A stretch of DNA of 64,000 bases from Diadema setosum (GCF_964275005.1 NC_092698.1:38728639-38792638); one strand, 5' to 3'. Counted from the stretch's first letter, positions 39,391 through 55,556 are shown. Translations and numbers: made by a program. Notes: generated by a model not told the origin, from the sequence alone.

Positions 39391-42300
39391 TTAAAGATTA
39401 AAGTCTGCTCTTTCAGAATATGATCTTAACTAAAAATTCATGTCTGGCGACTTTTTGTTTGTTTTGAGGTGCAGTGTCACATATAATGTTATATATTAGT
39501 ATTATACACAAATAAATCACACAATTAATGGAAGTATCTCTTCTCAATCCAAGACTGCAACAATTGCTGACATCTTGTAAACCAGTTAAACCCACTGACA
39601 GTATGATAATACATGTACAATGCACATCTTATCCCCTTTGAAACACAGGGTCTCACTCTTCCTTCCAATTTAAATAGTCAACACCTTTTTGTGCACTTCA
39701 TTTTGTTTTATGGCTGTGACATTTGCACAACTCTGAGAGATCACATATTTAGCACAGACCTTGGCACATTAATATCGCTGATTTAAAAGAAAGCCCCAAT
39801 TTAACAATGTTTCTGGAATCACCAATTTGCCCTAGTCAAAGCCACTCTCTCTTGTTCAAGAAAAAGACATTTTCGAAATGTCACATGGGATGAATGGATG
39901 GACAAAGTTATATAGCGGTCACATCAAGATTGTGAGATCATAATGTGTATCAAGGCATTCATGTCACTAAAAGAATAATAAGTGTCTATAAAATTAAATG
40001 AGGAAAATATAATAAGGGCTTAAAATGTTATTTCCTCCGAACATTTGTTAAATGTATATGTTTACCTATGAAGGTGTACAGTGGTTAATAGGTTTTTGAT
40101 CACTTAAAGTGTCCTTTTAAAAAAATTCTCTATCTAATGATACAATTCAGCAGTTTCTAAAATGAATGACTCTCTAAAGGAATGTGAAAGGCCATACAAT
40201 AACATTCAGTACCACACCCTACTCTGATATAAGAGTTTGACACACTTCTTCCCTACCAGATCATTTCAGTTTAGCTACATTCAGCCAACCAGTCAGCAAT
40301 GCATGTCAAGCAAAATGTCTTAAGCTCTGAATAAATCCAGGGAAAAATAGAAACGAGCCTGCAGTTATAACCTCACTATATCAAACCAACAAATACACGA
40401 TAGTTGGGGTGGGGTTTATAATTCAGAATTACCTCACTATAACAGTAATCTTGTTAAAGCCATGCTTGCTTAAAGGTGGCTGTTCTGCTGTAGGATAACA
40501 CTGCAAAGGTTGGCAACATCTTGTCTAAAAGTAACTCAAAAGTGAGCTGATTATAATACAACTGAATTGTAGCACCACCTTTCCAGTTTGAGGACACTTC
40601 GCTCTTTACACTCAGCAAACAAAGAGTGCATAAAAAACGAACAACAGCATGATGAAGCATTTCATTTGAGACTAGACAGAGCAGAGAACACTGAATTACT
40701 GTAGTTAGGCTCAAACTGCATTAATGTTTGTAATCAAACTGACTTTTGAGTATCAATATAAGGAAAACATTATAAGCACGCTCAGGATTACATCATTCCA
40801 ACAGGCAGCAAAGCTCAGCACACAATATCAATCATGAACTGGTGAAAGAACCATCAATCATGTGAGAATTCCCTATCATGATATGACAGGATGAAAACAA
40901 CACCTCCATCTTATTGCAACATTTCCACACTCAGTGCATTGCTAAGCAGTACTATTGCATCTTGTAATCACCTTGTCTACTCCGAAGCTGAACTACAACA
41001 ACAGAGTGTGATTCTGTGAGTTTCTCAAGTTCACAAATTTCAGTGAAATCATTCATGAAAATAAACTAGAAACAGAAGAAAATTATGATCATATGTGCTC
41101 AAAGACATTTAAACGTAACTACAGCAATTCGACTCCAGCACGCAGTTGACTTTCAGATGCCTCCAATCTATCACGCATTCACTATACATGTATAAGCCAT
41201 AAGTATGTGGCTCCTCATTTGCCTTTGAACAAAGGTCATCCATCTTGACCACTGACCAAGGATTGACCGTATCTGTACTCATGAATTATTTCCCATTTCA
41301 TTAATGTCCATAAGACAAAAATCACATATCACTGGATTTACAAATCTGTAGCCAAACTTCTGTGATGATCTGCTAGTTGTCTATCTAGTCAATGCATCTA
41401 CAGCTCATGCAGTATACCAAACCAAGTTCTCAGGCAATCTGCAGAACTGTTCCTCTTGAATCCCAGAAAAGAGACATGGCACAAAGAGACTGACGGACAT
41501 ACCACCCCAAAAACGTAATAAATGCCTTCAACACTCTTGGGAAGAGACATAAAATAGATGCTTAAAGTATTTACTCATTGTTCATCTCATATTGGCCCCA
41601 ATCATCATAAAATCATACATGACACATGAGCAACAAAGCTATCAAATAGGATTTCTTCAAGATTTTTTTTTGTTTTGTTAATCTATTGAGGCAAAAATTC
41701 TATTAACAGAAAAAGAGAAAACTCTAGAATTTCTGACACCTTGTAGCTCATATACAGACTACAATGTTTTCTCCATATATCAATGAAGAGATGACCTCCT
41801 ACTGCACTTTCTTTTTTTTTTTTTTTTGTCAAATGGCACAGACACCTTGGTGATTTCTTTATCAACTGGCACAGATAGCCTGGAAACTATATGTCAATAA
41901 ACAAATATTACCCCCCCCCCCCCCACCTCCGTTTTGTGGCCATAACTTTTCTGTTGGCCTTAGAAACATTGCTACAATTGAATGGGCTTGCTACCTTGTA
42001 CAACTACGTCCAGTTTGGATGGACAACTGAGAAATAATGAAAAGCTTGGTACGCAAAGGGATAATACATTGGTAGCATAATAACCTACTACATTGGCAAT
42101 CAGTAGAGTACAGGTATATTTGGAGGTTGAAATAATGATGATTTGCTTACAATGCTTGTGTAATCTGTAAAGAATAATACAAAAGGAATGTGTGTTACTC
42201 AAAAAGTTTGCCTGGAACAATTTCATTTGAATAAGCCATGTATTAGGACTTTAATACCAACCTGTGTCTCGTAAAAGAGCAAGATAAAGATTGTCCAAAC

Positions 42301-43436: not shown

Positions 43437-43580
43437 CTATTTCCCATATCGTCGAGTTGTGTAGTTTCGGATGAAGTAGCCTGGTGTACTCCAGTCACTG
43501 GCCGGTGTTGGTGTCTTGTAGTAACGTGAGACAGCACTGTTATAGATGGGCAGTAGTTCTGATGCCTCACTGGACAGGAC
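43437..43580 (-). CDS. Pdk: PDK terminal exon: VLSSEASELLPIYNSAVSRYYKTPTPASDWSTPGYFIRNYTTRRYGK*
   Basis: Minus-strand acceptor is cccatacAG. The stop codon sits at plus 43437-43439. It matches ALSTDS(V/F)ERLPV(Y/F)NKSAWRHY.T...DW. AATAAA lies on the minus strand near plus ~43190. Confidence 0.8.
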   Translation of the reverse strand, partial: VLSSEASELLPIYNSAVSRYYKTPTPASDWSTPGYFIRNYTTRRYGK

Positions 43581-44335: not shown

Positions 44336-44936
44336 AATACAGTTCGAGCTCGATTATCCGGCCATGTCGGGACCAGCGCTCATCCGGATAAGCGAATTGG
44401 CCGGATATGAGAGACACAATGTTAACAGTGGCGGATCCACAGGGGGGGCGCAACCGGCGCACACCCCCCCCCCCTTTATTTTTCGTTAAAAACAAAAGAA
44501 ATAAAAAGAAAAAAAATGAAATGAAACCCGGAAGTGGCACCAGAAATATTAATCATGCCCCCCTTTACAGAATTCCTGGATCCGCCCCTGGTTAATGTAT
44601 ATAGCTGCCGTCCCAGTGCACTGGCAGCTAGGCAGGTAGTGTACCCCGCAACGGTGGTGTAATCTATGCTAGCCTGCGCAAAATTGTAATCTCTTCTTCA
44701 CAAAAATAAAGTATATACTATCTTTATGTGAAAATCATACATGTTTTACCTCATTAGATATTGAGAAACCTATCATGCATATCTTATGAAATTAGTGAAA
44801 TAGATCCATGAAAGTCACTGTTTTTTCCCAATTTTTGGATAAAAAAAAAAGTCCTTCACTGAATGAACGCGTCCGGATAATAAGAGATTTCCGGATAAAA
44901 GGAGGCCGAATAATCGAGGTCAAACTGTATCTTGAT
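44336..44936. mobile_element. MITE with ~25-bp TIRs ACAGTT(C/T)GA(G/C)CTCGATTAT(C/T)CGGCC (~600 bp). It contains an internal ~170-bp G/C-run hairpin module that is also present at 54578-54766.
   Basis: Left end is acagttcgagctcgattatccggcc. The right end, reverse-complemented, is acagtttgacctcgattattcggcc. The internal module gtggcggatccacaggggggg...aaaaaaaatgaaatgaaacccggaagtggcaccagaaa...cctttacagaattcctggatccgcccctgg recurs at ~54578-54766 (a 27-base block is identical apart from one substitution). Confidence 0.5.
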
Positions 44937-45430: not shown

Positions 45431-46205
45431 CCCTATTTTAACTGGGCTATTTGAGACTAAGTTTTTACTGGGGGGGGGGGATCAATTTGAACCCCCCCCC
45501 CCCTTCAGATCTCGGCCGCGGATCGCGTGATTGCCGCGAAATTTTGCCTGAAGATAGAGCCAGATGTCAACTACAAGATTACATGGTCATACAATAGAAA
45601 AAAATTGGCTTTCTATTTTTAGTAAATTAATTATGCAAATTTACGCATGAAATCATATTTTCACCTATAACTCCATTAAAATGACTGATGGATCACTAAA
45701 TTTTCGTGTCAGAGTTCCTAAAGACACGTCAAACAATTTTCTTGTAAAAAAATAGCAAAATCAAAATCAGTTTCTTTTGTTTTTATTGTTTTGTTAATTT
45801 CTTATGTATTTCATTGTTTTTTCGACCTTTTGTTTTCAACTGTTTTTTCGCCAAAATTTGTTGCAGGCACTTTTCCAAGCTTATCTACATTAGAATTGAT
45901 TAATTTCAATGGTTAAAAGTTAAAATAATCTCATTTATATCAATTTAACAAAAAAGCACATTTTGCATTGGATTTGCACATGATATCATGAATTTGAGCC
46001 GTTTTCGGGTTGACATGCATATGCAAAATGTTACGTAACTTCAGAACAGAGTACCGGACGTCACAAATTTGGTCTCAAAATATGCGGGAGACTTCAATGA
46101 AAAAAGTCATGAAACGACGCGGCAAAATCTTTGCGGAATCGTGACGCGAAATGTCGAGGGGGGTCAATTTTACACCCCCCCCCCCCCCCCCCAGTTGGAA
46201 TAGGG
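45431..46205. mobile_element. piggyBac-like MITE, copy 2 (~775 bp), TTAA-flanked, same orientation as copy 1.
   Basis: Start is TTAA|CCCTATTTTAACTGGGC and the end is GCCCAGTTGGAATAGGG|TTAA. It shares internal blocks with copy 1 (gagatctcggcc, aaattttgc, aattaattatgcaaatt, cttatgtatttc..ttgtttt). Confidence 0.65.
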
Positions 46206-46544
46206 TTAAAACGTATCATACAACCACCGACTTTGCCAAGATTAATCACACTGAGCCAGTTCAATGAACTTGCTTATTTAACATTTCATAAACAAGAGTA
46301 TCTATGTTCTCAAATGTTTGCATGTTACTATTTCCACAATGTTTCAGCCAAGTGTGAAAAATGTGAGATTTTTCAAGCTACTAAATATTTCATGTTAACA
46401 GCAGATTGCTGCACACAGTCTGGCTCCCCAAGTGCTGATCCCCATTGCAGTAGTTTGTCTTGTTTGTTTTTTAAACCCAAGTAATTACAACAAGGCAAGT
46501 GCCAAATTGTGTCTCGCCCATTCGCATACAAGGAATTAATATTT

Positions 46545-47690
46545 TTTATAACCCCCAGAAGTTAATTGACCTGCTTATGACCTTTGACCTTGTGGTGACC
46601 TTCAACACCCCAAGGGACATTAACTATCCAAGTTTGGTCACAAATGGACAAGGGGATCAAAAGTAATGAGCTATAATCGAAATGCACCATAAAAACTTAA
46701 CATTGGGCCCTAAAAATTTGTTGACCCCTTTTTGTGACCTTTGACATTGTGATGACCTTTAACTCCCCAAGGGACATCTACCCTCCAAGTTTGGTCACAA
46801 ACGGACATAGGGATCAAAAGTTATGAGCCACAATCAAAACGCGCTCTAAAAACATAACATTGGGCCCTAAAAGTTTGTTGACCCCTGTATGTGACCTTTG
46901 ACCATGTGACGACCTTCACCTCCCCAAGGGACATCTTTCATCCAAGTTTGGTCACAAACGGACAAAGGGATCAAAAGTTATGAGCCATAAACGAAATGCG
47001 CCCTAAAAACTTAACATTGGGCCCTAAAAGTTCGTTGACCCCTGTCTGTGACCTTTGACCTTGTGGTAACTTTCAACTTCCCAAGAGACATCTACCATCA
47101 CCAAAGTTTGATTGCCATTGTAGCAACATGTGCTGAGTTACATGTGATAAGAGAGTCTTGCAAGTAAACTTTAACATATGACCTCAAACGACCTTTGACC
47201 TTATCATGTGACCTCTTACGGCACCATAACATGAAGGTACCCCCAGTGCATCCATCACCCAAGTTTGATTGTAGCAACATGTGTCGAGTTACGTGTGATA
47301 AGAGAGTCTTGCAAGTAAACTTTAACGTATGACCTCAAATGACCTTTGACCTTATCCTGTGACCTCCAAAGGCACCATAACATGAAGGTACCCCCAGTGC
47401 ATCTATGACCCAAGTTAGGTTGTAATCCAAGCAACTTATGTGAAGTCATTTGTCAAAAGAGAGTCTTGCAGGTAAACTTTAACATAGAAAAGAGAGTCTT
47501 GCACATACTCTTTAATATATATGACCTCAAATGACCTTTGACATCATCACATGACCTCTGACAACACCATAACATGAAGATACCCCTAGTGCTTCTATCA
47601 CCCAAGTGTGGCTGCCATTGCTGTAACAGTTGCCAAGTTATGCATCATAAGAGAGTCTTGCAGGTAAACTTTAACATTTGTGACGGACGA
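46545..47690. repeat. Intronic tandem array (~1.1 kb) in the PDK gene. It has ~3.5 copies of a ~157-bp unit followed by ~3 copies of a related ~140-190-bp unit. Every unit carries TGACCTTTGACC (a DR1 of AGGTCA half-sites on the opposite strand), often as TGACCTCAAA(C/T)GACCTTTGACC (DR4+DR1).
   Basis: gtgacctttgacc recurs at 46579, 46735, 46892, 47049, 47201, 47343 and 47534. The conserved flanks are ccccaagggacatcta...caagtttggtcacaaa(c/t)ggaca and gagagtcttgcaagtaaactttaaca. Confidence 0.8.
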
Positions 47691-48041
47691 CGGACGGACG
47701 ACGAACAGACACCATTTGGATCCCTTAGTCTCGCCTTCACCTCCGGTGGGCGAGACAAAAATGAAAACCCTCCTCTTTCTCAGAATTCACATGAGTAATG
47801 CAAATCCTACCAGACTCTTGTAAGATCCTAGAGCTTACATGATCTTCAATATCAATGTCATACAGTAGCAAATTTAAATTTGTCTAAGTAACACCATACT
47901 AGTCAACATAGACAAATGCGTAATCATATATCATCTGAGGTAGTTATTGAACCCTTCCTAAATCCACAATAAGAACACTTGGTGAAGGGCGAGAGCTGGC
48001 CTCAAAGAATTACTATGAAAATCATAGAGCTGCATCATTAC

Positions 48042-48155
48042 CTTGAGGTAGACCACAGCATCAGTGCCATAGCCATCCATGGAGGAAAGAGTCAGGTCGC
48101 CATGGAAATACTTGGCATACAGTCTTGAGATGGGCAAGCCATATCCATAGCCAGC
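48042..48155 (-). CDS. Pdk: PDK exon: [38 protein letters not shown]
   Basis: Minus-strand acceptor is ctttttctAG and the donor is AAG|GTAATG. It is near-identical to [14 protein letters not shown](K/R)YFQGDL.L.SMEG.GTDAVIYLK. Confidence 0.88.
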
Positions 48156-49493: not shown

Positions 49494-49865
49494 CTGCCAA
49501 AAACAATGAGACATCTAAGGATTAAACTGTGTTGACTCAACTTTCCTTATAATGAAATGTTTGACCCTGAATGCAAACAAATTAAAACTTGTTTGTGTAG
49601 CAGGTGCTGTAGTGATGTTTTGACACAAAAGGTAAGACAAGGATTTGTCTACATCACAATCTATTTAAGTGACCAAAATAACATTGAACTTATAAACCTT
49701 CAAGTTATTTATGAAAAAAAAAAGATAAAAAAACCATCTGAAAGTAGGCAAGTATATACTAGCACAGCACAGTGGACTATTCTCAAAATGTATGTTTCTA
49801 ACTCACTAAAGTGGGCAACAAATACACAGTGTGGTCATACATGACAAGTCATTAAAATAAATCAT

Positions 49866-50100
49866 AACTGAACTTTAACAAATGAATGATTCACTTTCAA
49901 CATGATATGGAACACTGTACTTTCTTAGAATAGCGCTAGAATGACCACAGGTTCCCCCAGCCCTGTATCTCATTGAAGAAATAACTGAACTTTAACAAAT
50001 GAATGATTCACTTTCAACATGATATGGAACACTGTACTTTCTTAGAATAGCTCTAGAATGACCACAGGTTCCCCCAGCCCTGTATCTCATTGAAGAAGCA
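49866..50100. repeat. Direct tandem duplication, 2 × ~118 bp (aactgaactttaacaaatgaatgattcactttcaacatgatatggaacactgtactttcttagaatag.gctagaatgaccacaggttcccccagccctgtatctcattgaagaa).
   Basis: Two near-identical adjacent copies are visible directly. Confidence 0.85.
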
Positions 50101-50324
50101 AATCTACATAGTGGAAGAACAGCTATACAGATCTCAGCATCATAATCACAAAAGATATGGAGTGGCTGTACAAGAATTGCTTTTTTAAAATGTACAAGAA
50201 AGAGTTAAGGCAAGACTGACAGACATATAAAAGTGTGTGCTTCACATTTTGATTTTATGTTTCCAAGAGCCTGTAAAATCATATATATTACATATAATTC
50301 AACTTTTGCAACACATGACTTTAA

Positions 50325-51085
50325 CCCTAAAAAGACTGGGGGGGCCTAAAAGGCCCCCCTCGACATTTCGCGCGATTACTCTGCAACACGCAATGCTCTC
50401 GCCGCGATGCTCTATGACTTTTTTCTTTCAAGTTTCCCGCACATTTTGACACCAAATTTGTGACGCCCGGGGGTACGGTTCTGAAGTTACATAACATTTT
50501 GTACATGCATGTGAGGCCGAAAATGGCTCAAAAATGTGATTTTGTGTACAAAGTCAATACAAATTGAGTTTTTTCACATGGTTCATATAAATATGCTTAT
50601 TTTTGCTCTCAATGGCTAAAATTAATTTCTTTTAGGAGTATTATGCTTCAAAAAGTGTCTGCCACAAATTTTGTTTAAGAAAACAACTAAAACAAAAGGT
50701 CGAAAAAACAAAGAAATACATAAGAAATTCATGAAACAATAAAATAAATAAGAAATTAATTCTGATACCGATTTTCTTTTCAAGTGCATTTGCTAAGAAT
50801 GCCACAAAGAATAATTAGACCAAAAATGAGCACTTTTGGAGCTTTATTTACTGATTTAGATCAAAGAGTCTGATTTCTCGCATAAATTAGCATAATTAAT
50901 CAAAATAAAATAAAAGAAGACTATTATGGAAAATTTAAATATACGATCTTGTAGATGACATCGCACACTACCATTGTGCAAATTTTCGCGGCGATCACGC
51001 GATCCACGGCCGAGATCTTAAGGGGGGCCCTTTAGGCCCCCCCCCCAGTCTTTCGAGCTACCAAAATAGCCCAGTCTTTTTAGGG
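50325..51085. mobile_element. piggyBac-like MITE, copy 3 (~760 bp), inverted relative to copies 1 and 2, inside a PDK intron.
   Basis: Start is TTAA|CCCTAAAAAGACTGGGGGGGCC and the end is GGCCCCCCCCCAGTCTTTTTAGGG. The same internal blocks appear as reverse complement. The 3' TTAA is degraded (gtaa). Confidence 0.6.
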
Positions 51086-51169
51086 TAATCAATAAAACCA
51101 CTTCCACTAAAGTGAACATACACTTCCATGTATAAACTCTGATAATGCTTTTTTTTTTTTTCTACATAC

Positions 51170-54501: not shown

Positions 54502-55556
54502 CTGGATGAGGAATGGAAGAAAAGATTGTGTTTATCAAATCTACGGTCCTGTACCTCCATATACCCAACGCATACCAGTGGCAGATCGGGGGGGGGGGGG
54601 GGGGGGGATAAAGAGAAATAAATAAAGAGAAAAAAGGGGGGATAAAGAGAAATAAATAAAGAGAAAAAAAATGAAATGAAACCCGGAAGTGGCACCAGAA
54701 ACATAAGTTGTGCCACCCCTCCCCCCCCCCCCCCTTTACAGAATTTCTGGATCTGCCCCTGCATACTTGTACAAACAGTCTTTGCTGCTCACTGCTTAGG
54801 CACAATTACAACTTGCTCAAGCATAAAAGTATATGTTCCGCGGTTTGTTATGAATACAACACTTTTAAAGGTTGGCCAATCAAAAAGTGAAGGGGGTAGG
54901 GTTACCATCACAGTCAGTCCCACTGATTTACCTGTAGCCTACAACTGCATTCCAACAAGGGGGTGCTGCAAACAATACTGTTGCTTCTCATGTGCATTCA
55001 TTTTTTTTTTCTCTTTGACAAACATGTGATGCCAAATAACAACCCTTTAAAGATACATAGTCTGCTGTATACAGAGCAGTGTGATGATTGGTGGAGAAGT
55101 TGAATTGCCTCTTTGATAAACCATTCAAACACAGTAAAAATTCACCATTTCTGCTTCATACACAATTAGAAAACAGTAAACCATAAACACCTGAACATTC
55201 ACGTAGGTTTTGCTCATTTGCTTATGTAAAATCTTTTCTGAAAGAATGTTTCAGCACTGTATATCATTTTAACAAAATGCAAAATACAATGTGGACTTGA
55301 ATAGCATCGACATTTTACCCGACATGATTGTGAGTTACTCAAATTAGTTCATTAGCATGGTATCAGTAACTACACTTCTGATCATTCATTACCTACATAC
55401 AACATCACAATGTGATCCAATATTTTTGCATGAAATATATCACAATGGAAATCCTGTGTATGAATGAGAAACTGAAGATGGCAGTGCCTCAAGTCATGAC
55501 AAGATGAAGGTAGTATGAGTGAGAAGTGAAGAGAGGGAAGGCCTGTGTCAACTCAC

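What the first reader, a model, noticed from the sequence alone, without database searches (positions are those of the whole stretch)
46545..47690. Intronic satellite array inside PDK whose every unit carries DR1/DR4 nuclear-receptor-type direct repeats
Seven tandem units each contain TGACCTTTGACC, a perfect DR1 of AGGTCA half-sites on the other strand. Four of them read TGACCTCAAA(C/T)GACCTTTGACC (DR4+DR1). DR1 and DR4 elements are the binding sites of the HNF4/RXR/PPAR/COUP and TR/LXR class receptors. Vertebrate PDK4 is a classic nuclear-receptor target. An array of about seven such sites in the last intron of an invertebrate PDK is either a striking coincidence of a satellite family or a repeat-borne enhancer cluster.
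Basis: partly seen in the sequence, partly recalled or inferred. Interest (0 to 1): 0.55.

Follow-up and report, generated by a model that had tools for sequence, protein, structure and literature searches.

The report
Helentron-type transposon inside PDK intron
The apparent array of nuclear-receptor sites is the tandem-repeat core of an ordinary non-autonomous, DINE-1/HINE-type transposon in the last intron of the sea urchin Diadema setosum PDK gene, and the receptor-like motif belongs to the repeat family, not to this gene.

Summary
The repeats are real, but the description needs correcting. The interval holds two related arrays, not one. Array A has 157-bp units (x3.4) and array B has 151-157-bp units (x3 plus a part). 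Exact TGACCTTTGACC occurs 4 times, and 7 times with one mismatch allowed. The DR4+DR1 composite occurs 3 times, not 4.

The host is the sea urchin Diadema setosum, and the arrays lie in the 4.46-kb last intron of its PDK gene.

The arrays form the core of a 1.27-kb element at 47761-46489 on the minus strand. It has the full anatomy of a non-autonomous Helentron (HINE, DINE-1-like, pearl/Cg_HINE-like):
- a T-run at the 5' end
- a 14-nt subterminal inverted repeat with an adjacent complementary repeat
- a (GTCS)n microsatellite
- central tandem repeats
- a 3' subterminal inverted repeat

Copies with the same termini but unrelated flanks occur on independent public contigs. About 34 translated-ORF clusters carry related units.

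The orthologous PDK introns of Lytechinus and Strongylocentrotus are about 0.6 kb and lack the element and the motif.

The AGGTCA-A-AGGTCA block is a duplicated heptamer (TGACCTT x2). It is the best-conserved part of the repeat family. Enhancer function is untested and unsupported. This is an ordinary finding with one mild curiosity.

The parts
46489..47761 (-). Whole non-autonomous Helentron-type element (HINE), about 1,273 bp, in the same orientation as PDK. It starts 280 nt downstream of the 5' splice site of the last intron.
   Evidence: The termini were defined by comparison with independent copies L002 and L006. Homology starts at TTTTTGTCTCGCCC and ends at ..GCCTTGTT, and the flanks are unrelated.
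47747..47760 (-). 5' subterminal inverted repeat TTTTGTCTCGCCCA, preceded by a T-run at 47757-47761.
   Evidence: Inverted repeat I8, 14 nt, 93% complementary to 46507-46520. It is identical in L002, L006 and L007.
47728..47735 (-). Internal inverted repeat (IR) GGCGAGAC, 11 nt from the 5' subTIR. It forms a hairpin with the subTIR.
   Evidence: DNA fold gives -11.9 kcal/mol, z = -2.6, and 4 of 200 shuffles fold as well. The same hairpin occurs in L002 and L006.
47712..47727 (-). Conserved left-flank box TAAGGGATCCAAATGG.
   Evidence: It aligns with L002 and L006. GATCCAAAT is also kept in the second subfamily, L010.
47682..47706 (-). (GTCS)n microsatellite, read as GTCG/GTCC on the minus strand and ACGG/GACG on the plus strand.
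   Evidence: Sequence. It is the only (GTCS)3 run in the window. Its length varies between copies and is longer in L002.
47092..47681 (-). Core repeat array B: units at 47675-47520, 47483-47327 and 47326-47177, plus a hybrid partial unit at 47175-47049. There is a 36-bp internal duplication at 47484-47519. Each unit ends with AGGTCA-N7-AGGTCA-A-AGGTCA-TTTG-AGGTCA.
46570..47099 (-). Core repeat array A: 157-bp unit x3.4, about 85% identical. The units are homologous to B units over the TGACCT cluster and the CCAAGTTTGG block.
46578..47543 (+). Span of the seven DR1-type sites TGACCTTTGACC. Exact sites start at 46578, 46892, 47049 and 47340. One-mismatch sites start at 46735, 47189 and 47532. 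DR4+DR1 composites lie at 47179-47199, 47330-47350 and 47522-47542.
46507..46520 (-). 3' subterminal inverted repeat, TGGGCGAGACACAA on the minus strand.
   Evidence: I8. It is conserved in L002 and L006.
46489..46506 (-). 3' tail ending in ..GCCTTGTT, with a very short palindrome GGCA-N2-TGCC at 46494-46503.
   Evidence: The shared 3' end appears in three copies. The hairpin is weak at -2.8 kcal/mol and is no better than shuffles.
43437..43580 (-). Last coding exon of PDK (VLSSEASELLPIYN...RRYGK, then the stop codon).
   Evidence: tblastn of PDK proteins, with exact matches to the D. setosum protein P0123.
48042..48155 (-). Penultimate coding exon of PDK ([38 protein letters not shown]). The last intron is 48041-43581, 4,461 bp.

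Best explanation
The interval is the internal tandem-repeat core of a roughly 1.27-kb non-autonomous transposon of the Helentron-associated type. Other names for this type are HINE, DINE-1-like, and 'pearl'/Cg_HINE-like in molluscs. The element is inserted in the last intron of the pyruvate dehydrogenase kinase gene of the sea urchin Diadema setosum, in the same orientation as the gene.

Read on the minus strand, it consists of:
- a T-run
- a 14-nt subterminal inverted repeat
- a complementary 8-nt repeat 11 nt further on, which forms a hairpin with it
- a conserved box
- a (GTCS)n microsatellite
- two consecutive arrays of related ~155-bp core repeats (B, then A)
- the 3' subterminal inverted repeat
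- a short tail ending in TT

Steps that are inferred, not shown: such elements are thought to be mobilised in trans by the Rep/helicase/endonuclease of an autonomous Helentron that recognises the terminal structures. The internal arrays are thought to expand and contract by unequal exchange or replication slippage.

The DR1/DR4 'nuclear receptor' motif is part of the ancestral core repeat. TGACCTTTGACCTT is a tandem duplication of the heptamer TGACCTT, and each unit carries 3-4 such half-sites at its 3' end, next to the unit junction. Tandem amplification of the unit produced seven copies here. The array is therefore a passenger of a transposon insertion that helped inflate this intron. There is no evidence that it regulates PDK.
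For: Anatomy, seen directly in the sequence:
- subTIR pair 47747-47760 / 46507-46520, 93% complementary.
- subTIR-IR hairpin of -11.9 kcal/mol, z = -2.6.
- (GTCS)n microsatellite at 47682-47706.
- Two consecutive arrays whose consensus units are homologous: score 80 against 45.5 +/- 5.6 for shuffles.
- This is the published HINE/Cg_HINE/DTC84 layout feature by feature: 5' subTIR, IR 1-22 nt away, GTCY-type microsatellite, ~150-180-bp central repeats sometimes from two clusters in consecutive order, 3' subTIR, T-rich insertion and no TSD (PMC7492417; PMC3879986; PMC4067079).

Mobility and dispersal:
- A protein search with translated repeat ORFs found independent contigs.
- L002 and L006 are complete copies. 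They share the 5' end TTTTTGTCTCGCCCACCGGAGGTGAAGGCGAGACT.AGGGATCCAAATGG-(GTCS)n-CACAAATG-GTTAAAGTTTAC and the 3' end TGGGCGAGACACA..GCCTTGTT. Their flanks are unrelated and their internal content differs.
- L007 is an inverted dimer. L001, L005 and L008 carry related arrays.
- An exhaustive search found 38 ORF clusters at E<=1e-3, of which 36 are other than the two already found. 34 of those 36 are repeat-derived.
- No TSD is visible in any copy.

Not locus-specific or conserved:
- The host was identified as D. setosum. The PDK query matches P0123 at 99%, and the exon matches are exact.
- The orthologous last introns of L. variegatus (L003) and S. purpuratus (L004) are about 0.6 kb. They have no TGACCTTTGACC, no subTIR, and no blastn or nhmmer similarity to the element.
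- The same Diadema intron also holds another dispersed repeat at 45494-46184.

Background:
- Rolling-circle elements are annotated in D. setosum at 0.92% of the genome, 11,509 copies (PMC11066563).
- DINE-1-like elements and Helentron proteins are reported in sea urchins (PMC4067079).
Against: - No autonomous partner with matching termini was identified.
- The 3' palindrome expected of HINEs is only 3-4 bp and folds no better than shuffled sequence.
- The copy number in the D. setosum genome itself was not measured. The other copies come from ENA metagenome assemblies whose source organism I could not determine.
- No empty site was recovered.
- Two JGI metagenome scans and one viral-contig scan found nothing.
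- The DR1/DR4 block is the best-conserved part of the repeat family. It may therefore be under some constraint, and a regulatory or protein-binding role cannot be excluded.
Confidence: 0.88

Rival explanations
1. A repeat-borne enhancer. The transposon's DR1/DR4 sites are bound by HNF4/COUP-TF/RXR-type receptors, and the array has been co-opted as a lineage-specific intronic enhancer of PDK.
For: - The sites are perfect consensus AGGTCA-A-AGGTCA and AGGTCA-N4-AGGTCA. There are 19 co-oriented half-sites in 1.27 kb.
- The block is the most conserved part of the unit across copies and subfamilies.
- Repeat-borne nuclear-receptor sites have precedent: HNF4alpha sites in Alu (PMC3252374).
- From general knowledge, vertebrate PDK4 is a nuclear-receptor target.
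Against: - The motif occurs wherever the repeat family occurs, so its presence at PDK carries no locus-specific information.
- It is absent from the orthologous introns of two other urchins.
- No expression, accessibility or binding data are available.
- The motif is explained more simply as a duplicated heptamer amplified with its unit.
Confidence: 0.06
2. A cut-and-paste MITE with internal tandem repeats, mobilised by a TIR transposase and not by a Helentron.
For: - A 14-nt inverted repeat lies near both ends.
- pearl and DTC84 elements of identical layout were first described as MITE-like, with an 'AA' putative TSD (PMC3879986).
Against: - The inverted repeats are subterminal.
- The ends are T-runs/TT.
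- No TSD is visible in three complete copies.
- The 5' subTIR + IR + GTCY microsatellite combination is the diagnostic HINE/DINE-1 layout. That layout was reassigned to Helentrons once autonomous partners with matching ends were found (PMC4067079; PMC7492417).
Confidence: 0.05
3. A locus-specific tandem duplication, or a fragment of classical satellite DNA, unrelated to any mobile element.
For: Head-to-tail units of satellite-like length (about 155 bp).
Against: - There are only 6.5 units.
- The array is bounded by conserved transposon termini that recur with the same repeats on unrelated contigs.
- Two unit types occur in a fixed order.
Confidence: 0.01

Closest known systems
[quoted passage not shown] 2020, PMC7492417)
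   Same: Identical module order: 5' subTIR, complementary IR 1-12 nt away, GTCY/GTCC/GTCK microsatellite, short array of ~150-180-bp satellite-like repeats, 3' subTIR plus a short tail. Some elements carry two repeat types in consecutive order. Both insert at T-rich sites without TSD and are dispersed through the genome.
   Different: The phylum differs (echinoderm against mollusc). I found no sequence similarity: the motif and the subTIR are absent from that paper's supplementary text. The 3' palindrome here is much weaker.
pearl (Crassostrea virginica) and DTC84 (Donax trunculus) tandem-repeat-containing 'MITEs' (PMC3879986)
   Same: Layout L flank + 1-5 core repeats of about 160 bp + (ACGG/ACGA)n + R flank, with an 11-bp inverted motif that is subterminal at one end. 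The microsatellite is the same ACGG type. A conserved short structured motif sits at the 3' end of every core repeat next to the junction: a palindrome in DTC84, a TGACCT direct-repeat cluster here. Repeat variants occur in a fixed order.
   Different: The junction motif is a direct-repeat cluster, not a palindrome. The host is a sea urchin. The sequences are unrelated.
DINE-1 / HINE non-autonomous Helentrons (Thomas et al. 2014, PMC4067079), including the sea urchin Tsp elements cited there
   Same: 12-15-bp subTIRs a few nt from the 5' end, an IR near the 5' subTIR, a microsatellite, optional central tandem repeats, and T-runs at the boundaries. Helentron proteins are reported in S. purpuratus.
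   Different: The defining link to an autonomous partner with matching ends was not shown here. The 3' tail after the subTIR is short (about 18 nt) and its palindrome is marginal.
Alu-borne HNF4alpha (DR1) binding sites in primates (Bolotin et al. 2011, PMC3252374)
   Same: A nuclear-receptor DR1-type motif embedded in the consensus of an abundant mobile element, and so scattered through introns.
   Different: Binding was demonstrated for Alu and nothing was demonstrated here. The element class differs (SINE against HINE). Here the motif is multiplied by tandem repetition within each element.

Membership tests
HINE / DINE-1-like non-autonomous Helentron | 11-15-bp subterminal inverted repeats, with the 5' one 2-5 nt from the element end | tested here: met
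   The pair 47747-47760 / 46507-46520 is 14 nt and 93% complementary. The 5' copy follows a 5-T run that starts the element.
HINE / DINE-1-like non-autonomous Helentron | A short inverted repeat (IR) complementary to the 5' subTIR, 1-22 nt downstream | tested here: met
   GGCGAGAC at 47735-47728, 11 nt after the subTIR. The hairpin is -11.9 kcal/mol, z = -2.6. It is conserved in L002 and L006.
HINE / DINE-1-like non-autonomous Helentron | A GTCY-type tetranucleotide microsatellite after the left flank | tested here: met
   (GTCG/GTCC)n at 47706-47682. Its length varies between copies.
HINE / DINE-1-like non-autonomous Helentron | A central short array of satellite-like tandem repeats in a fixed orientation (optional in the family, typical of the pearl/Cg_HINE subgroup) | tested here: met
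   Arrays B and A, 151-157-bp units, 6.5 units in total.
HINE / DINE-1-like non-autonomous Helentron | A 5-10-bp palindrome (stem-loop) between the 3' subTIR and the 3' end | tested here: inconclusive
   Only GGCA-N2-TGCC in the window, and 2-3-bp equivalents in L002 and L006. The fold is -2.8 kcal/mol, no better than shuffles.
HINE / DINE-1-like non-autonomous Helentron | Insertion at T-rich/TT sites without target-site duplication | tested here: met
   The element starts with TTTTT and ends with TT in the window, L002 and L006. The flanks show no duplication. No empty site was available for confirmation.
HINE / DINE-1-like non-autonomous Helentron | Multiple dispersed copies with the same termini at unrelated loci | tested here: met
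   L002, L006 and L007 carry the termini. L001, L005 and L008 carry the arrays. 34 repeat-derived ORF clusters were found. The source organism of these contigs is unknown, and the copy number in the D. setosum assembly was not measured.
HINE / DINE-1-like non-autonomous Helentron | An autonomous Helentron (Rep/helicase/endonuclease) in the same genome sharing the terminal sequences | not testable with these tools
   The D. setosum genome could not be searched. The literature reports Helentron proteins in S. purpuratus and 0.92% 'Rolling Circle' repeats in D. setosum.
Nuclear-receptor response element cluster / PDK enhancer | Consensus RGKTCA half-sites in DR1 or DR4 arrangement | tested here: met
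   Exact TGACCTTTGACC x4, plus 3 with one mismatch. DR4+DR1 composite x3. 19 TGACCT hexamers.
Nuclear-receptor response element cluster / PDK enhancer | Locus specificity or conservation at the orthologous position | tested here: not met
   The motif travels with the transposon family. It is absent from the PDK last introns of L. variegatus and S. purpuratus. These species are distant, so a Diadema-specific co-option is not excluded.
Nuclear-receptor response element cluster / PDK enhancer | Receptor occupancy, open chromatin, or reporter activity | not testable with these tools
   No functional data are accessible.
Classical satellite DNA | Long homogeneous arrays (tens of kb or more), typically heterochromatic, not bounded by transposon termini | tested here: not met
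   6.5 units, about 1.1 kb, bounded by HINE termini.

The most novel reading that the evidence does not exclude
The AGGTCA direct-repeat module (AGGTCA-N7-AGGTCA-A-AGGTCA-N4-AGGTCA) may be a functionally constrained part of a whole superfamily of echinoid HINE core repeats, and not merely a neutral duplicated heptamer.

Evidence for constraint:
- It is the most conserved block across 22 aligned units from 8 loci.
- It survives in at least two HINE subfamilies with different termini.
- Exact or near-exact versions occur in 34 of 34 repeat-derived ORF clusters.

If it is bound by nuclear receptors (HNF4/COUP-TF/RXR class), these transposons would be seeding arrays of receptor sites through sea urchin introns, one of them inside PDK. 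Alternatively, the module may serve the element itself, as a junction-proximal hotspot for array expansion or as a docking site for a host or transposon protein.
Probability: 0.12. Interest if true: 0.55.

Novelty: new member of a known kind. Interest (0 to 1): 0.2.

Why it matters
It matters mainly as a correction. A striking cluster of textbook transcription-factor sites in a metabolically suggestive gene is the internal array of a mobile element. The seven sites count as one ancestral event, not seven.

It also documents a pearl/Cg_HINE-like, tandem-repeat-carrying Helentron derivative in a diadematid sea urchin. About 26% of that genome's repeats are unclassified (PMC11066563).

The one point worth a specialist's glance is that the receptor-like direct-repeat block is the most conserved segment of the repeat family. 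This is cheap to test with existing urchin ATAC-seq pipelines or with gel shifts.

Tried and rejected
1. Bivalve origin. The anatomy and the ACGG microsatellite first suggested an oyster or clam pearl element. The PDK search rejected this and identified Diadema setosum at 99%. An earlier search with a 214-aa partial query gave only matches of 50% or less, because long hits were not returned.
2. Sequence relationship to the oyster Cg_HINE repeats. No occurrence of the motif or the subTIR in that paper's supplementary text.
3. Known RNA family, or tRNA-derived SINE. No Rfam match at E<=1 and no tRNA-like gene in the window.
4. Further copies inside the 64-kb window. None.
5. DNA-pattern scans of JGI metagenome contigs, once with the 5' flank and once with the DR block, and one scan of viral contigs. 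Zero hits.
6. Exact look-up of the D. setosum PDK protein to fetch the locus. It is not on record.
7. Reading Cohen et al. 1985 on the sea urchin Tsp elements. The paper is not held.
8. Protein-coding reading of the repeat ORFs. Rejected: the frames in the window are broken by stops (ORFs of 45-74 aa), there are no Pfam domains, and the conservation follows the DNA motif.

Full report
THE OBSERVATION

The interval 46545-47690 does contain tandem repeats, but there are two arrays, not one. TRF and the repeat finder report a 157-bp unit repeated 3.3-3.4 times at 46570-47099 (about 85% identity, array A). They also report a 151-157-bp unit at 47092-47677 (array B). Array B has three full units plus a partial one, and one unit is lengthened by a 36-bp internal duplication at 47484-47519.

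The exact 12-mer TGACCTTTGACC occurs four times, at 46578, 46892, 47049 and 47340. Three further sites have one mismatch, at 46735, 47189 and 47532. All seven lie in the arrays, against 0.37 expected in the window. The composite TGACCTCAAAYGACCTTTGAC occurs three times, not four.

The element holds 19 of the window's 30 plus-strand TGACCT hexamers, all co-oriented, about 100-fold above the surrounding density. Because the units are copies of one another, these are one or two ancestral events multiplied by amplification. They are not seven independent coincidences.

HOST AND GENE

PDK exons lie on the minus strand. A near-full-length reconstruction matches the annotated PDK of the sea urchin Diadema setosum at 99%. 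Lytechinus variegatus (86%) and Strongylocentrotus purpuratus (85%) come next. The exon-by-exon matches to the D. setosum protein are exact.

The penultimate exon ends at 48042 and the last exon starts at 43580.

WHAT THE ARRAY BELONGS TO

Read on the minus strand, in order:
- a run of five Ts (47761-47757)
- TTTTGTCTCGCCCA (47760-47747)
- 11 nt later, the complementary GGCGAGAC (47735-47728), which forms a hairpin with it (-11.9 kcal/mol, z = -2.6)
- a box TAAGGGATCCAAATGG
- a (GTCG/GTCC)n microsatellite (47706-47682)
- array B, then array A
- a 49-nt spacer
- the inverted copy TGGGCGAGACACAA (46520-46507; 14 nt, 93% complementary to the 5' copy)
- an 18-nt tail ending in GCCTTGTT (46489)

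This matches, module for module, the published structure of non-autonomous Helentrons (HINEs, DINE-1-like elements). In particular it matches their tandem-repeat-carrying forms in molluscs. Those forms have:
- a 5' subTIR
- an IR 1-22 nt away
- a GTCY-type microsatellite
- ~150-180-bp central repeats, sometimes of two kinds in consecutive order
- a 3' subTIR
- T-rich insertion sites
- no target-site duplication

The sources are Cg_HINE (PMC7492417), pearl and DTC84 (PMC3879986), and the definition of HINEs (PMC4067079). The A and B consensus units are homologous to each other: score 80 against 45.5 +/- 5.6 for shuffles. Their longest shared block is TGACCTTTGACCTT.

EVIDENCE THAT IT IS MOBILE AND DISPERSED

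The window holds no second copy. DNA-pattern scans of JGI metagenomes and viral contigs found nothing.

Translating the repeat ORFs and searching them as proteins did work. Two ENA metagenome ORFs matched, and their contigs carry the same repeats. An exhaustive profile-free search returned 38 clusters at E<=1e-3, 10 of them at <=1e-10. Two of the 38 were the ORFs already found. Of the other 36, two are unrelated real proteins and 34 are repeat-derived. All that I traced come from ENA assemblies.

Contigs L002 and L006 hold complete copies:
- Both have the same 5' end: TTTTTGTCTCGCCCACCGGAGGTGAAGGCGAGACT.AGGGATCCAAATGG, microsatellite, CACAAATG, then the first unit starting GTTAAAGTTTAC.
- Both have the same 3' end: TGGGCGAGACACA...GCCTTGTT.
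- Their flanks are unrelated and their internal content differs. L002 has B units only. L006 has two B units plus about 580 bp of other sequence.

L007 is an inverted dimer of the 5' half. L001, L005 and L008 carry related arrays. No copy shows a target-site duplication, and the boundaries are T-runs. These comparisons fix the element in the window at 47761-46489.

I could not determine which organism these contigs come from. The left flank of L006 is identical to the window's, which suggests the same or a closely related species.

LOCUS SPECIFICITY AND CONSERVATION

The orthologous PDK loci of L. variegatus (L003) and S. purpuratus (L004) were retrieved. Their last introns are about 0.6 kb. 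They contain no TGACCTTTGACC, no subTIR, and nothing similar to the element by blastn or nhmmer.

The Diadema intron is about seven times longer. Besides the HINE, it contains a copy of another dispersed repeat at 45494-46184, with relatives at 38635-39396 and 50319-51086. The simplest reading is an intron inflated by transposon insertions. The two comparison species are distant from Diadema, so this does not exclude a Diadema-specific co-option.

THE MOTIF ITSELF

TGACCTTTGACCTT is two tandem copies of the heptamer TGACCTT. Array A units carry three TGACCT-type half-sites plus a TGACCC, and array B units carry four, all at one end of the unit. [quoted passage not shown] DTC84 repeats carry their conserved palindrome in the same position.

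The block is conserved:
- Among eight B-type units from three loci, it is one of the two best-conserved blocks (0.98-0.99 against a mean of 0.90).
- Among 22 units from eight loci, including the A units and a distant family in L009, the block around AAGGTCAAAGGTCA is the most conserved 13-column window (0.90 against a mean of 0.72).
- A second HINE subfamily (L010) has a different subTIR and ~170-bp units. It keeps GAGGTCACATGACAAGGTCAAAGGTCATTGGAGGTCA.
- At the peptide level, VKGH (GTCAAAGGTCA) is exact in 29 of the 36 additional clusters. It is one residue off in five more, and is absent only from the two unrelated proteins.

These counts are biased towards whatever is conserved, because the hits were found by similarity, and the units are not independent. 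I treat the conservation as a lead, not as proof of constraint.

MECHANISM

Shown:
- the module anatomy
- the shared termini at unrelated loci
- the absence of TSDs
- the absence of the element from orthologous introns
- the origin of the seven sites by amplification of one unit

Inferred from the literature on the family:
- mobilisation in trans by a Helentron Rep/helicase/endonuclease that recognises the subTIR and hairpin structures
- array length change by unequal exchange or slippage

Not shown:
- an autonomous partner
- an empty site
- the copy number in the D. setosum assembly
- any effect on PDK

The expected 3' stem-loop is marginal. No Rfam family and no tRNA-like sequence is present.

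COMPARISON AND NOVELTY

The class is well known. DINE-1-like elements were reported in sea urchins decades ago (Tsp, cited in PMC4067079). Helentron proteins occur in S. purpuratus. The D. setosum genome paper lists 0.92% rolling-circle repeats and 25.9% unclassified repeats. I found no description of this particular family, so it is a new member of a known kind.

Repeat-borne nuclear-receptor motifs also have precedent: Alu and HNF4alpha (PMC3252374).

VERDICT

The enhancer interpretation is unsupported.

Interest is low (0.2). The residual curiosity is the strong conservation of the AGGTCA direct-repeat module in the repeat family. I give about a 12% chance that it reflects real protein binding with regulatory consequences.

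Noticed in passing
window 38635-39396 (+), 45494-46184 (+), 50319-51086 (-): Three copies (66-70% identical) of a ~770-bp element with G-run/C-run ends and inverted termini ACCCTAAAA...TTTTAGGGT. It looks like an older MITE-type family. One copy sits in the same last PDK intron, next to the HINE.
   Followed up: partly
window 49864-50097: A 117-bp sequence duplicated in tandem at 99% identity, inside another PDK intron. It looks like a very recent duplication.
   Followed up: no
window 44495-44590 and 54650-54761: A ~100-bp repeat (78% identical) associated with G/C runs and AAAGAG-type simple repeats, in two PDK introns.
   Followed up: no
window 48041-43581 versus L003 22639-23231 and L004 20111-20720: The last PDK intron is 4.46 kb in Diadema and about 0.6 kb in Lytechinus and Strongylocentrotus. 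At least 2 kb of the difference is recognisable transposon sequence.
   Followed up: partly
L007 9924-10452: Head-to-head inverted dimer of the HINE 5' half: left flank, microsatellite and one unit, then the mirror image. The whole forms a long palindrome.
   Followed up: no
L010 3940-5048: A second HINE subfamily from the same ENA sample. It has a different subTIR (TGTGTCGCC), a (GTCC/GTGC)n microsatellite and ~170-bp units. It keeps the GATCCAAAT box, the GTTAAAGTTT array start and the AGGTCA DR1/DR4 block.
   Followed up: partly
L009 135-652, 1094-1787, 3744-4043 and 10086-10462: Several arrays of 145-147-bp units rich in GGGTCA/AGGTCA half-sites on a 114-kb eukaryotic contig of unknown origin (ERZ25070167). 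These are distant relatives of the same repeat superfamily.
   Followed up: no
(tool behaviour): A 214-aa partial PDK query returned only proteins of 375 aa or less, at 50% identity or less. A 369-aa query found the 411-aa D. setosum protein at 99%. Hits much longer than the query appear to be dropped, which can hide the true source species.
   Followed up: yes
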